Sequence record: LR877332
Length of the DNA stretch: 64,000 bases
Direction: 5' to 3' (one strand)
DNA from: Shigella phage vB_SsoM_JK08
Shown here: positions 25,493-63,952 of the stretch, in pieces
Layout: the number at the start of each line of letters is the position of its first letter
Position numbering within the stretch: position 1 is the stretch's first letter
The notes under the pieces: generated by a model
What the model saw: the letters and a program-made list of their open reading frames with translations, nothing else
Database searches by the model: none
Told to the model about the DNA's origin: nothing
Program-made: the position numbers and the translations under genes

Positions 25493-26074
25493 CTAACCGA
25501 GCTTTTTAGTTAATTCATTCCAATGTTTTCTACACAAAGAAACATAAATTTCATCACCAATACAGATTTGATTACCTTCTTTAACTGGTGTTCCATCTTC
25601 CGTTAATCGAGCTGTCATAATCGCTTTTTTACCGCAATGACAAACCGCCTTTAGTTCAATAAGTTTATCTGCAATCGCTAAAAGTTCTTTAGAACCTTCA
25701 AACAATTTTCCAGCGAAATCAGTCCTTAATCCATAAGCCATAACAGGAACATTATATGTATCAACAATTCGACTTAATTGATGCACCTGTTCAGTTTTTA
25801 AAAACTGAGCTTCATCTACAAATACGCAATGAATATCTTTTTGTGCTTCAGCCCATTTATAGAACTCGAAAATATCCATATCATCTGTAATAATATTTGC
25901 TTCCTGCCTAATTCCAATGCGAGAAACGACTTCACAGACAGAATCGCGAGTATCAATAGCAGGCTTAAGAACTAATACACTCATTCCACGTTCTTTATAA
26001 TTATGTGCAGCAGTCAAAAGAGAAGCAGATTTTCCAGCATTCATTGCTGCATAAGTAAAAATTAAACTCGCCAT
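25493..26074 (-). CDS. tk: thymidine kinase
   Basis: 193-aa ORF; P-loop AMNAGKS, Zn-binding CHCG...C-terminal Cys; matches T4 Tk length. Confidence 0.92.
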   Translation of the reverse strand: MASLIFTYAAMNAGKSASLLTAAHNYKERGMSVLVLKPAIDTRDSVCEVVSRIGIRQEANIITDDMDIFEFYKWAEAQKDIHCVFVDEAQFLKTEQVHQLSRIVDTYNVPVMAYGLRTDFAGKLFEGSKELLAIADKLIELKAVCHCGKKAIMTARLTEDGTPVKEGNQICIGDEIYVSLCRKHWNELTKKLG

Positions 26075-26083
26075 ATCACCTTC

Positions 26084-26269
26084 TTAAAGCGTATTCACAT
26101 AAGCTATTAATTCATTTTCTTTCTTATCAAACCGATCAGCAAATTCTTCCTGCTGTTCGGGAGATAACGGGCCGTATTCATCATAAAAGGTGTTTGCTTC
26201 TGTATGCTCATCTAGAAGTTCATGGATAAGCTCAAATAATTTATCTTTTTGTTCTTTACTCAGACTCAT
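26084..26269 (-). CDS. hypothetical acidic protein
   Basis: 61-aa ORF; ATGA overlap with upstream small ORF. Confidence 0.45.
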   Translation of the reverse strand: MSLSKEQKDKLFELIHELLDEHTEANTFYDEYGPLSPEQQEEFADRFDKKENELIAYVNTL

Positions 26270-26439
26270 ATATTAATTTCCAAAAGTTTTAAAATAATTC
26301 GCTTTTGCTTAAATATTTCCACAGTTAAATGATCAGTATCTTTTTGACCAATTCCAATGGCAAAACCTTTATTAACAGCGAGTTCAATTAAATTATCAAG
26401 TTCACGTAACACTTCATATTGTAACTCAGAACTATTCAT
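26266..26439 (-). CDS. small hypothetical protein (57 aa)
   Basis: ATG at 26439, TGA at 26266-26268 overlapping next start; below ORF-track cutoff. Confidence 0.4.
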   Translation of the reverse strand: MNSSELQYEVLRELDNLIELAVNKGFAIGIGQKDTDHLTVEIFKQKRIILKLLEINI

Positions 26440-26648
26440 TTCGGTTTACCTTCTTTAACGAAATCTGGATAAGGATAAAATCCCGAATAAAACCCTTCAC
26501 CTTTATGATTGATGCATCCTTTATTAGAACAATAGCACCAATAATCGAAATCACAAACCATTTCATCGTTGCATAAAGCAAAAACAACCGGCCACTTACA
26601 CTTTTCACAATGGGCATTTTTAAGAATACTAGTTTGGCTCATAACCAT
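26436..26648 (-). CDS. Cys-rich small protein (putative zinc-binding)
   Basis: 70-aa ORF with 9 Cys (CEKC, CNDEMVC, CYC, C..H). Confidence 0.5.
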   Translation of the reverse strand: MVMSQTSILKNAHCEKCKWPVVFALCNDEMVCDFDYWCYCSNKGCINHKGEGFYSGFYPYPDFVKEGKPK

Positions 26649-26866
26649 GTAACCTTTAAGCAGTATTCTTCTACATGCTGTTTACGACCTTTCTTATCAA
26701 TAAAGGTATATTCAACGAATGTTCCAATGTAGTCTTTATCTACATCATGCGGACTATTAATTGGACATTTAGTACGGCAAATGCGTTCCCATTGACGAAT
26801 AATTACTGCCTTATTCTTTGGGTCATATGGATGTGGATAATGTATATTCATAATAACGGTTCCCAA
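26639..26866 (-). CDS. hypothetical protein
   Basis: 75-aa ORF. Confidence 0.45.
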   Translation of the reverse strand: MGTVIMNIHYPHPYDPKNKAVIIRQWERICRTKCPINSPHDVDKDYIGTFVEYTFIDKKGRKQHVEEYCLKVTWL

Positions 26867-27315
26867 TCAACAATCACAATTTCTAATTTAGAGGAATATG
26901 TATCTAAAATCCCCTCAATAATATCCCAGTTCCCTTTACCTATGCCTGCACCAATCCTAGGCATATAGATTGTAGGTTTAATCAGTTTATTTTCACCAAA
27001 CTCATTTAATTCTAACATACAATTCATTAAAGCGGAATACTCAAAATTTGGCCCTGGTTGAAATTGAGTATAAAGGTTGAAGCAATACGCTTTATGAGTC
27101 CTAAAGTATTTTTCATAGACTGAGTAAGAACCGAGTTTAGTTACATCACCCCATTCAGTCTGTAATTTATCAGCTTCCAAAATTTTAGGGAAAGCTTTGG
27201 TTAATTGACCCGCTACGCCTGAACCCATAGTATGAAAACAATTGCATCCATGCGCAATATTTTTACCTTCAGCGAAAAGGGCGACAATATCGCCCTTGAT
27301 ATATTTTACAATCAT
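26848..27315 (-). CDS. macro-domain-like protein (putative ADP-ribose binding/hydrolase)
   Basis: 155-aa ORF; GDI...AHGCNCFHTMGSGVAGQL and IYMPRIGAGIGKG resemble macro-domain ligand-binding loops. Confidence 0.5.
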   Translation of the reverse strand: MIVKYIKGDIVALFAEGKNIAHGCNCFHTMGSGVAGQLTKAFPKILEADKLQTEWGDVTKLGSYSVYEKYFRTHKAYCFNLYTQFQPGPNFEYSALMNCMLELNEFGENKLIKPTIYMPRIGAGIGKGNWDIIEGILDTYSSKLEIVIVDWEPLL

Positions 27316-27653
27316 CTAGTACTCAATCCTCGATTATAAGAATCTACCAAACGGTCAACCATTGAATGACAAGCGGCTTTATCTTTCTCCTCCGCAACTG
27401 AACATTCTAAGGTATTCCACTTTTTAGCATATCGTTTTAATAATGTATCGTTTTTGTATCTGCTTGATTTATCTCTTTCTCCGTCTTTATATGCATATAT
27501 TAATTTCTGCGCAAATTCAGCTTGGCATGCTTTATTTTTCCCACAATAATCTGCCGCAGTGCGATTTACATATTCTCTAATTTCAGTATATGATGTATCT
27601 GCTAACGCAGAAAATGAAATTAATCCTATACATAAAACCAAAATTTTAGTCAT
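27312..27653 (-). CDS. secreted/periplasmic hypothetical protein
   Basis: 113-aa ORF with N-terminal signal peptide MTKILVLCIGLISFSALA. Confidence 0.5.
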   Translation of the reverse strand: MTKILVLCIGLISFSALADTSYTEIREYVNRTAADYCGKNKACQAEFAQKLIYAYKDGERDKSSRYKNDTLLKRYAKKWNTLECSVAEEKDKAACHSMVDRLVDSYNRGLSTR

Positions 27654-28191
27654 TTACTATTTCCAAAAGTTTATTATTTTTAAGGTAATTAGCCTTTTCT
27701 AGGACTTCAGAAGCATATTTAGAACCTGCTTTAACATTCCATCCCGAATTATAAGATGATATTGCTTTTCTTATATCGCCCTTATGTATATTTAACCAAT
27801 AAGAAAGTTCAATGTACGCCCAGGAAGCTGAATTGGATCGTTTATTCAACATTCTTTTTATTTCAGCATCGGTCATATTATAACCAAGTTCCTTAACTCT
27901 TGCTCGCATAGTAGGCAAATAATTTTGGAACATTCCATAAGCGTGATGCTTTGGTTTAGATTTTAAATTAACTCCGCCAGAGCTTTCTTGCCATAAAATG
28001 GCTGCCATTATATGGCCTAATCCGCTCTTGTGGATGTTTTTGTGTGTTTTATATTTTCCATCCTTAGAAAATTGTTCCCCGAATTGATACGCGTAACGCA
28101 TGTTATCGAGTTGGACATTACTGAAAGTATGCTCGGAGCTATGTGCCATCATTGAAATGGCCAATAGACCAGCGAGTAGTGCTTTTCTCAT
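27646..28191 (-). CDS. secreted lytic-transglycosylase-like protein
   Basis: 181-aa ORF; signal peptide MRKALLAGLLAISMMAHS; ILWQESSGG...AYGMFQ resembles SLT-domain catalytic Glu-Ser motif. Confidence 0.5.
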   Translation of the reverse strand: MRKALLAGLLAISMMAHSSEHTFSNVQLDNMRYAYQFGEQFSKDGKYKTHKNIHKSGLGHIMAAILWQESSGGVNLKSKPKHHAYGMFQNYLPTMRARVKELGYNMTDAEIKRMLNKRSNSASWAYIELSYWLNIHKGDIRKAISSYNSGWNVKAGSKYASEVLEKANYLKNNKLLEIVND

Positions 28192-28198
28192 GCTTACC

Positions 28199-28660
28199 TC
28201 ATTGAGTTTTAATTACTGCTTTAGAAGCCTTTCCTGGTAAACGACGACTGTTGATAATTGCCATCCTGCATTGAAGTGACGGGTTTTTGAACTTCTCATT
28301 AGGCTTACAAACCGTAAATCCAAGCCAAAGATTTCCATCTGTGATTTCTAAACGTCCAGGACGATATTCAACCCCATCAATAAAATCCTCGTCAATGTCA
28401 GGACGCGGAGGCATACTCAGGAATTCATTAACTTCTAAAACATGGTCTTTTATTTTATGGAATAATTCAAAAACATATGTCTCATCAATCTCCCGTTGAA
28501 TTGCACGATCAAGAAGATGTTGAGAATATTTTAGATGAAACGATGAGACTCCTGCTGCTTTTGATGCCTCACGAATCTCATTGTTAATTTGACGAAACTC
28601 CGACTCAAAATGACGACGAAGCTTATTTCGACGGATAAAAACTTCTGTATTGATAGTCAT
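28199..28660 (-). CDS. regB: endoribonuclease RegB
   Basis: 153-aa ORF matching recalled T4 RegB (MTINTE.FIRRNKLRRHFESEF...); own early promoter upstream. Confidence 0.75.
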   Translation of the reverse strand: MTINTEVFIRRNKLRRHFESEFRQINNEIREASKAAGVSSFHLKYSQHLLDRAIQREIDETYVFELFHKIKDHVLEVNEFLSMPPRPDIDEDFIDGVEYRPGRLEITDGNLWLGFTVCKPNEKFKNPSLQCRMAIINSRRLPGKASKAVIKTQ

Positions 28661-28687: not shown

Positions 28688-28716
28688 ATTATACCACAGT
28701 CAAGAGGAAAAGTAAA
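28688..28716 (-). promoter_or_regulatory. sigma70-type early promoter (-35 TTTACT, -10 TGgTATAAT)
   Basis: RC of 28688-28693 = TATAAT with TGG; 17-nt spacer to RC of 28711-28716. Confidence 0.55.
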
Positions 28717-59071: not shown

Positions 59072-60773
<1,702 letters not shown>

Positions 60774-60814
60774 TAAATATTATAAACTAATTAAAGCCCA
60801 GATTAGGAGAAATC

Positions 60815-63952
<3,138 letters not shown>

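What the first reader, a model, noticed from the sequence alone, without database searches (positions are those of the whole stretch)
26848..27315. Macro-domain-like protein among small secreted/cysteine-rich ORFs between regB and tk
The 155-aa ORF contains GDI...AHGCNCFHTMGSGVAGQL and IYMPRIGAGIGKG segments resembling the two ligand-binding loops of macro domains (ADP-ribose binding/hydrolysis). T4-type phages encode ADP-ribosyltransferases, and bacterial defence systems also use ADP-ribosylation and NAD-derived signals, so a phage macro domain could reverse or sense such modifications (inference). Neighbours include two signal-peptide proteins (27312..27653 and a lytic-transglycosylase-like 27646..28191) and a 9-Cys small protein (26436..26648).
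Basis: partly seen in the sequence, partly recalled or inferred. Interest (0 to 1): 0.5.

Follow-up and report, generated by a model that had tools for sequence, protein, structure and literature searches.

The report
Phage T4 Tk.4/AdfM macrodomain gene

Summary
The ORF is real. It lies on the minus strand at 26848..27315, encodes 155 aa, and sits in the early regB-vs.1-vs-tk.4-tk.3…tk gene string of a Tequatrovirus. Its protein is 155/155 identical to T4 Tk.4 (NP_049723), long annotated "phosphatase; A1pp motif".

It is a true macrodomain:
- Pfam Macro scores 27.7 bits against a cut-off of 22.
- The AF2 model has pLDDT 94.9.

A bioRxiv preprint (HIDEN-SEQ, Nov 2025) found tk.4 as the only transposon hit under DarTG2. 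A clean knockout sensitised T4, and the gene was renamed adfM.

What this analysis adds: Tk.4 is not a DarG-type enzyme. The catalytic Lys of DarG, TARG1 and PhiKZ AdfM aligns to an invariant Gln84 (119/119 relatives), paired with Asn25. This matches S. coelicolor SCO6735, which cleaves thymidine-ADP-ribose by a Gln-dependent mechanism. Tk.4 lacks SCO6735's long mobile loop. No Tk.4 biochemistry was found in the papers searched.

Corrections to the finding: the "9-Cys" neighbour has 7 Cys and is absent from T4, and 27312..27653 is vs.

The parts
26848..27315 (-). tk.4 / adfM coding sequence: 155-aa stand-alone macrodomain of the ALC1/TARG1-like class
27217..27252 (-). Codons for residues 22-33 (HGCNCFHTMGSG): first ligand-binding loop, including Asn25, the equivalent of DarG N22, PhiKZ AdfM N23 and SCO6735 N27
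   Evidence: N25 is found in 118/119 relatives and G33 in 119/119. Alignment A2. The N23A and N27S mutant data come from PMC13309987 and PMC9411070.
27064..27078 (-). Codons for residues 80-84 (N-L-Y-T-Q). Gln84 occupies the position of the catalytic Lys of TARG1 (K84), TaqDarG (K80) and PhiKZ gp104 (K78), and of Gln85 of SCO6735
   Evidence: HMMER profile alignments to TARG1, SCO6735 and Bt_1257. MAFFT alignment A2. Q84 is invariant in 119/119 relatives, Y82 in 119/119 and N80 in 118/119.
26932..26961 (-). Codons for residues 119-128 (PRIGAGIGKG): Gly-rich phosphate-binding loop. Gly126 sits where TARG1 has the catalytic Asp125
   Evidence: P119, I121, G122 and G124 are invariant. Alignment to TARG1 'PRIGCGLDRL'.
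27312..27653 (-). Context: vs (valyl-tRNA synthetase modifier). Its stop codon overlaps the tk.4 start codon (ATGA)
   Evidence: PHROG 1256 E=5e-40. T4 annotation. Junction sequence.
26639..26851 (-). Context: tk.3 (DUF7202). Its ATG overlaps the tk.4 stop codon (ATGA), suggesting translational coupling
   Evidence: 100% identical to T4 Tk.3. Pfam DUF7202 E=2e-38. Junction sequence.
28688..28716 (-). Context: best sigma-70-like promoter match upstream of regB (TTTACT-17-TATAAT with TG), a candidate early promoter for the regB…tk.4 string
   Evidence: (10/12 match), but the number of promoter-like sites in the region is not above the shuffle expectation. X04567 annotates a potential -10 before the regB ORF and describes the region as 'early'.

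Best explanation
This is gene tk.4 (recently renamed adfM, anti-DarT factor macrodomain) of a T4-type phage. The phage is a Tequatrovirus whose local DNA is identical to Yersinia phage PYps35T and Escherichia phage a15. The gene encodes a 155-residue protein that is nothing but a macrodomain of the ALC1/TARG1-like class. It is made from the early regB-vs.1-vs-tk.4 transcription unit. Proposed mechanism: the host toxin DarT2 (of the DarTG2 toxin-antitoxin defence) attaches ADP-ribose to N3 of thymidines in single-stranded phage DNA and blocks replication. Tk.4 binds the ADP-ribose in its cleft (loops 22-33 and 119-128) and hydrolyses the thymine-ribose bond, releasing free ADP-ribose and restoring replicable DNA. 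It thus acts as an 'orphan antitoxin'. The active site is not DarG-like. The catalytic lysine is replaced by an invariant Gln84, held by invariant Asn25, as in Streptomyces SCO6735. In that enzyme the Gln positions the distal ribose and a backbone-held water starts catalysis. What is shown: gene identity, fold, class and residue pattern (this work), and the requirement of tk.4 for DarTG2 resistance of T4 (preprint genetics). What is inferred: that Tk.4 itself hydrolyses dT-ADP-ribose, and that it does so by the SCO6735-type Gln mechanism.
Against: No biochemical assay of Tk.4 was found in the searched literature. The in vivo evidence is one preprint, obtained under special conditions (M9 glucose, 30 °C). 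Tk.4 lacks the catalytic Lys of DarG and TARG1. It also lacks the 5-residue-longer mobile loop, and the K34/K89 equivalents, that the SCO6735 study linked to DNA binding. So transfer of the SCO6735 mechanism is by analogy only. Tk.4 scores far below the DarG equivalog cut-off (30.3 against 250 bits). It is only marginally similar to the biochemically proven PhiKZ AdfM (BLASTP over 23 residues, E=0.005). The protein is mildly acidic (pI 5.9), but so is PhiKZ gp104 (pI 5.05), so this is not informative.
Confidence: 0.8

Rival explanations
1. Tk.4 protects mainly by binding rather than by catalysis. It would act as a stoichiometric inhibitor of DarT2, or as a shield or reader of ADP-ribosylated DNA. 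The hydrolytic activity would be weak or absent because the catalytic lysine is missing.
For: Catalytically dead SCO6735 Q85A, DarG K80A and TARG1 K84A all inhibit DarT in vitro by interaction, and SCO6735 does so most strongly (PMC9411070). Tk.4 has Gln instead of Lys at the catalytic position. No Tk.4 hydrolysis data exist.
Against: Invariance of N25, Q84 and the Gly loops across 119 divergent relatives is what an enzyme active site looks like. In SCO6735 the same Gln/Asn pair is required for hydrolysis. Tk.4 lacks the C-terminal DarT-binding domain that DarG uses for toxin binding: it is 155 aa and matches only positions 2-146 of the 338-position DarG model. Binding and hydrolysis are not mutually exclusive.
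Confidence: 0.1
2. Tk.4 is a small-molecule ADP-ribose-derivative hydrolase, as its old annotation says. It would act as an ADP-ribose-1''-phosphate phosphatase (Poa1p-like) or an O-acetyl-ADP-ribose deacetylase that clears by-products of RNA repair or NAD metabolism. DarTG2 protection would then be a side activity.
Against: The only phenotype reported is DarTG2 sensitivity. The conserved motif N-x-Y-T-Q matches SCO6735/Bt_1257 (N-M-I-G-Q), not Poa1p (L-F-T-S-S). The 'phosphatase' label is an annotation by motif, not an assay. In this window the gene is not next to RNA-repair genes.
Confidence: 0.07
3. Tk.4 is the eraser for the phage's own ADP-ribosyltransferases (Alt, ModA, ModB). It would trim or time the ADP-ribosylation or RNAylation of host proteins during infection.
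For: T4 encodes three such transferases (established knowledge) and no other dedicated eraser is known to me. The gene is expressed from an early region (X04567 description).
Against: Alt, ModA and ModB modify arginine, and ALC1/TARG1-like macrodomains are not known to cleave Arg-ADPr (own knowledge, not tested here). No essentiality or phenotype without DarTG2 was reported in the HIDEN-SEQ screen. The family is present in about 2750 phage records of many genera, including Felixounavirus- and Pakpunavirus-like phages. I did not check whether these carry Alt/Mod homologues.
Confidence: 0.03

Closest known systems
Bacteriophage T4 Tk.4 = AdfM (NP_049723.1; 'ORF 60.5' of X04567)
   Same: Identical protein (155/155) in the same position between vs and tk.3, with 98% identical flanking DNA.
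   Different: Nothing in the protein. The host genome is a different Tequatrovirus (local DNA 100% identical to PYps35T and a15). It carries a different gene cassette between tk and tk.3.
Streptomyces coelicolor SCO6735 / Bacteroides Bt_1257 (Gln-type ALC1-like macrodomains; PDB 5E3B, 2FG1)
   Different: Only 22-30% identity. Tk.4 lacks the 5-residue-longer 'mobile loop' that defines that subclass, and lacks its Lys34/Lys89 equivalents. Its motif is N-x-Y-T-Q rather than N-M-I-G-Q. It is phage-borne rather than chromosomal.
DarG antitoxin macrodomain (T. aquaticus 5M3E, M. tuberculosis 5M3I)
   Different: The catalytic Lys80 is replaced by Gln84. There is no C-terminal DarT-binding domain and no adjacent darT gene. 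Tk.4 scores 30 bits against a 250-bit equivalog cut-off.
PhiKZ gp104 'AdfM' (chimallivirus DarG2-like macrodomain, Cell Rep 2026)
   Same: Same name and the same proposed role: a phage stand-alone macrodomain against DarTG2. The Asn is conserved.
   Different: It comes from a different lineage. gp104 is a close DarG relative (E=1e-24 to MtbDarG; PADLOC DarG 133 bits) and keeps the catalytic Lys78. Tk.4 and gp104 are barely alignable by BLASTP (23 aa, E=0.005). gp104 has in vitro evidence and Tk.4 does not.
Human TARG1/OARD1 and yeast Poa1p
   Different: The TARG1 catalytic dyad K84/D125 corresponds to Q84/G126 in Tk.4. Poa1p has S at the Gln position and a large insertion.

Membership tests
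Macro domain superfamily (Pfam PF01661) | Profile match above the curated gathering score | tested here: met
   27.7 bits against cut-off 22, E=2.9e-6, covering profile positions 2-113 of 118.
Macro domain superfamily (Pfam PF01661) | Alpha/beta/alpha macro fold | tested here: met
Macro domain superfamily (Pfam PF01661) | Conserved Gly-rich ADP-ribose/phosphate-binding loops | tested here: met
   G31, G33, P119, I121, G122 and G124 are invariant or nearly so in 119 relatives.
ALC1/TARG1-like macrodomain class | Closest structural and sequence neighbours are members of this class, separated from MacroD-type and viral macrodomains | tested here: met
T4 Tk.4/AdfM orthologue | Sequence identity and conserved gene order vs - tk.4 - tk.3 | tested here: met
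   155/155 identity. The flanks are 98.2% identical to T4 60712-62500. T4 annotation.
T4 Tk.4/AdfM orthologue | Required for phage growth on DarTG2-expressing hosts | not testable with these tools
   Reported for T4 in bioRxiv 10.1101/2025.11.20.689424. Not shown for this phage, but the protein is identical.
DarG antitoxin (NCBIfam NF048014 equivalog) | Score above the equivalog cut-off | tested here: not met
   30.3 bits against cut-off 250.
DarG antitoxin (NCBIfam NF048014 equivalog) | Catalytic lysine (TaqDarG K80) | tested here: not met
   It aligns to the invariant Gln84.
DarG antitoxin (NCBIfam NF048014 equivalog) | C-terminal DarT-binding domain and an adjacent darT toxin gene | tested here: not met
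   The protein is 155 aa and matches only model positions 2-146 of 338. Its neighbours are vs and tk.3.
SCO6735/Bt_1257 subclass of ALC1-like macrodomains | Gln in place of the catalytic Lys, locked by a conserved Asn | tested here: met
   Q84 (119/119) and N25 (118/119) align to Q85 and N27 of SCO6735. The role of these residues is described in PMC9411070.
SCO6735/Bt_1257 subclass of ALC1-like macrodomains | Mobile loop five residues longer than in DarG/TARG1 (stated as characteristic of the subclass in PMC9411070) | tested here: not met
   In alignment A2 the Tk.4 family has a 6-7 column gap where Bt_1257 and SCO6735 carry 'HG-IYKDSKGL'. Its loop length equals that of DarG/TARG1.
TARG1-type glycohydrolase | Lys84/Asp125 catalytic dyad | tested here: not met
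   Q84 and G126 occupy the aligned positions.
Thymidine-ADP-ribose DNA glycohydrolase (functional class) | Removes ADP-ribose from DarT2-modified ssDNA in vitro | not testable with these tools
   No published assay for Tk.4 was found. The activity is shown for SCO6735, DarG, TARG1 and PhiKZ gp104.

The most novel reading that the evidence does not exclude
The Tk.4 family is found in about 2750 phage records. The two 'bacterial MAG' members I checked both lie on T4-like phage contigs. The family may be a third, uncharacterised active-site configuration within the ALC1/TARG1-like class: the Gln/Asn centre of SCO6735 on the short-loop scaffold of DarG/TARG1, with its own invariant N-x-Y-T-Q motif. 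If so, it may have a substrate range or mode of action that differs from DarG. For example, it might also clear uracil-ADPr from RNA, as SCO6735 and TARG1 do. It might act on other DarT-like or CmdT-like toxins, or combine hydrolysis with direct DarT2 inhibition. In that case it would not be a simple captured antitoxin.
Probability: 0.25. Interest if true: 0.45.

Novelty: already known. Interest (0 to 1): 0.2.

Why it matters
The gene matters as an example of phages carrying 'orphan antitoxin-like' erasers against DNA ADP-ribosylating defences. T4 now has AdfN (a NADAR protein, against DarTG1) and Tk.4/AdfM (a macrodomain, against DarTG2). That story is already in the literature, so this window adds no discovery. 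The one useful point for specialists concerns the comparison drawn in the preprint, which likens Tk.4 to M. tuberculosis DarG. Tk.4 in fact lacks DarG's catalytic lysine and shares its Asn/Gln centre with SCO6735. This predicts which point mutants should be dead (Q84A, N25A). It also shows that the two phage proteins both named 'AdfM' (T4 Tk.4 and PhiKZ gp104) are only distantly related lineages within the class, not orthologues.

Tried and rejected
1. I first took the Cys-rich ORF 26436..26648 to be T4 tk.3 and the DUF7202 ORF to be an insertion. blastn and blastp against T4 showed the reverse. DUF7202 (26639..26851) is Tk.3, and the Cys-rich ORF belongs to a cassette absent from T4.
2. I looked for cellular homologues that might sit beside a darT gene, to test the 'captured antitoxin' idea. 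The two 'bacterial MAG' hits examined (P0072, P0118) lie on T4-like phage contigs carrying Rnl1, PNKP, dCMP deaminase and spanin genes. They give no information on a cellular origin.
3. The promoter/terminator scan found 15 promoter-like sites against 15.2 expected from shuffles, so it gives no independent evidence. Only the site upstream of regB matches the old T4 annotation.
4. Net charge and pI as a test for DNA binding were uninformative. Tk.4 has pI 5.9, but the proven DNA de-ADP-ribosylase PhiKZ gp104 has pI 5.05.
5. Literature searches for biochemistry on Tk.4 found none. The terms were tk.4, AdfM, anti-DarT factor, SCO6735, DarG and TARG1. The CmdTAC paper and the two 2026 hydrolase-specificity papers do not test it.
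6. Direct BLASTP of Tk.4 against PhiKZ AdfM gave only a 23-residue match, so the shared name does not reflect orthology.
7. I did not use the remaining large database searches. They could not change the verdict.

Full report
**Observation.** The ORF is real. The ORF listing gives a 155-aa ATG ORF at window 26848..27315 on the minus strand, and the plus-strand translation of the same coordinates is full of stops. It lies in a head-to-tail string of minus-strand genes:
- regB, 28199..28660 (Pfam REGB_T4, E=6e-69)
- vs.1, 27646..28191 (SLT domain, E=1.4e-5)
- vs, 27312..27653 (PHROG 'valyl tRNA synthetase modifier', E=5e-40)
- the ORF itself
- tk.3, 26639..26851 (DUF7202)
- three small ORFs
- tk, 25493..26074 (Pfam TK, E=1e-60)

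The start codon of the ORF overlaps the stop of vs, and its stop overlaps the start of tk.3, both as ATGA. This is typical of translationally coupled T4 early genes.

**Identity.** The 3.3-kb region is 100% identical to Yersinia phage PYps35T and Escherichia phage a15. It is 95-99% identical to about 470 other Tequatrovirus records. The protein is 155/155 identical to T4 Tk.4 (NP_049723.1), which RefSeq annotates as 'phosphatase; Tk.4; contains A1pp phosphatase motif'. It was first deposited as 'ORF 60.5' of the '58.3 to 65.5 kb early region' of T4 (X04567). Other records already call it 'macro domain protein' or 'Poa1p-like family protein'.

**Is it a macrodomain?** Yes, by three independent tests.
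1. *Profile match.* Pfam Macro scores 27.7 bits, above the gathering score of 22.
2. *Sequence searches of the PDB.* The single sequence finds Bt_1257, yeast Poa1p, SCO6735, DarG and TARG1. A 48-sequence family profile raises these to E=1e-17 to 3e-10, while coronavirus Mac1 reaches only 2.5e-3.

So the protein belongs to the ALC1/TARG1-like class.

**What is known about its function.**
- A bioRxiv preprint of November 2025 (HIDEN-SEQ, 10.1101/2025.11.20.689424) screened a T4 transposon library on a DarTG2-expressing host. tk.4 was the single significant hit.
- The same preprint showed that a clean tk.4 knockout becomes DarTG2-sensitive. It renamed the gene adfM and proposed that it removes ADP-ribose from DNA.
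- This fits the earlier report that T4 lacking adfA and adfN is still DarTG2-resistant, so a further factor must exist (PMC11825919).
- Independently, a Cell Reports 2026 paper gave the same name, AdfM, to PhiKZ gp104. It showed in vitro that gp104 removes thymidine-linked ADP-ribose, and that an N23A mutant is impaired (PMC13309987).

**What this analysis adds.** Tk.4 is not a DarG-type enzyme.
- *Missing catalytic residues.* In the HMMER profile alignments and in a MAFFT alignment with Bt_1257, SCO6735, Poa1p, TARG1, two DarGs and PhiKZ gp104, the catalytic lysine (TARG1 K84, TaqDarG K80, gp104 K78) aligns with Gln84 of Tk.4. TARG1's Asp125 aligns with Gly126.
- *Conservation.* Gln84 is invariant in all 119 relatives retrieved, within an N-x-Y-T-Q motif. 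Asn25, the equivalent of DarG N22, gp104 N23 and SCO6735 N27, is present in 118 of 119.
- *Comparison with DarG and gp104.* Tk.4 scores 30 bits against the 250-bit cut-off of the NCBIfam DarG equivalog. It covers only the macro part of the DarG models. PhiKZ gp104 scores 133 bits on the PADLOC DarG model and E=1e-24 against MtbDarG. Tk.4 and gp104 are barely alignable by BLASTP. The two 'AdfM' proteins are therefore distant lineages, not orthologues.
- *The SCO6735 precedent.* The Asn/Gln arrangement is exactly that of S. coelicolor SCO6735, which has Gln85 at the lysine position. SCO6735 nevertheless cleaves DarT-made thymidine-ADP-ribose efficiently and protects cells from DarT. It is inactivated by Q85A/E and nearly so by N27S, and the proposed mechanism is water-initiated and backbone-assisted (PMC9411070).
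- *Where the analogy stops.* Tk.4 lacks the five-residue-longer 'mobile loop' that the same paper describes as characteristic of the SCO6735/Bt_1257 subclass. It therefore combines the Gln-type centre with the short-loop scaffold of DarG/TARG1.

**Mechanism proposed.** Tk.4 is made early in infection. It binds ADP-ribose attached by DarT2 to thymidines in single-stranded phage DNA and hydrolyses the N-glycosidic link. Gln84, positioned by Asn25, orients the distal ribose. Free ADP-ribose is released and replication can resume. Gene identity, fold, class and residue pattern are shown here. The need for tk.4 against DarTG2 is shown by preprint genetics. The hydrolysis itself and the SCO6735-type chemistry are inferred.

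**Rivals.**
- *Protection by binding or inhibiting DarT2.* Dead SCO6735, DarG and TARG1 mutants do inhibit DarT in vitro.
- *A small-molecule Appr-1''-p or OAADPr hydrolase.* This is the old annotation. Poa1p is structurally close, and homologues lie near Rnl1/PNKP in two T4-like contigs.
- *An eraser for the phage's own Alt/ModA/ModB marks.*

None of these has direct support, and the strict conservation of the active-site pair argues for catalysis.

**Distribution.** tblastn finds homologues in 2750 of 50,697 phage records across many genera (Escherichia, Klebsiella, Salmonella, Pseudomonas, Vibrio, Acinetobacter and others). The identity distribution has gaps: 220 records at 95% or more, 159 at 80-90%, and 2361 below 60%. 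The two 'bacterial MAG' homologues I examined are on T4-like phage contigs.

**Corrections to the finding.**
- The strand is minus.
- The '9-Cys' ORF 26436..26648 has 7 Cys and is a Pfam Phage_zn_bind protein.
- That ORF, together with the 57-aa ORF 26266..26439, has no counterpart in T4. Window 26075..26637 does not align to T4. T4 has tk.1 and tk.2 there, and 26084..26269 is a 54%-identical Tk.2 homologue.
- 27312..27653 is vs.

**Verdict.** Interest is low. The residual open point is the untested Gln-type mechanism of the Tk.4 family.

Noticed in passing
window 26075..26637 (minus-strand ORFs 26084..26269, 26266..26439, 26436..26648): The interval between tk and tk.3 is a replaced cassette relative to T4 and does not align to T4 by blastn. 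T4 has tk.1 and tk.2 here. This phage has a 54%-identical Tk.2 homologue, a 57-aa ORF with no T4 match among tk.1-tk.3, and a 70-aa 7-Cys Phage_zn_bind (PF23895) protein. The flanks are 98% identical to T4.
   Followed up: partly
window 27312..27653 (vs) and 27646..28191 (vs.1), minus strand: Vs is historically the cytoplasmic 'valyl-tRNA synthetase modifier'. It starts with a signal-peptide-like sequence (MTKILVLCIGLISFSALA|D), as does the SLT-domain protein Vs.1 (MRKALLAGLLAISMMAHS). A secreted Vs would be hard to reconcile with its textbook role. The HIDEN-SEQ preprint reports vs as conditionally required in minimal medium. No signal-peptide predictor was available.
   Followed up: no
phage collection, tblastn of Tk.4: Tk.4 alleles fall into discrete identity bands: 220 records at 95% or more, 159 at 80-90%, almost none at 60-80%, and 2361 below 60%. 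Some phages that keep the vs-tk.4 synteny carry a roughly 58%-identical allele (for example PinkRuby and ECO4). This suggests allele replacement or diversifying selection at this counter-defence locus.
   Followed up: no
L003 344..2397 and L004 6001..8941: In two T4-like contigs binned into bacterial MAGs, the Tk.4 homologue lies near RNA-repair genes. In L003 these are DUF4326, Rnl1, a Dda-like helicase and PNKP. In L004 they are a DNA ligase, SLT and PNKP. The NCBI label 'MAG: macro domain-containing protein [Bacilli bacterium]' is thus attached to a phage contig.
   Followed up: partly
window 27277..27297: A perfect 8-bp GC-rich hairpin (AAGGGCGA-CAATA-TCGCCCTT) lies inside the 5' end of the tk.4 coding sequence, at the codons for KGDIVALF. 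The scan flagged it as terminator-like on the antisense (+) strand. Three such sites were found in the region against 1.9 expected, so it may be chance.
   Followed up: no
literature: Two only distantly related phage macrodomains have independently been given the same name, AdfM. One is T4 Tk.4 (Gln-type, genetics only, bioRxiv Nov 2025). The other is PhiKZ gp104 (Lys-type and DarG-like, with biochemistry, Cell Rep 2026). This is a nomenclature clash that could mislead annotation transfer.
   Followed up: yes
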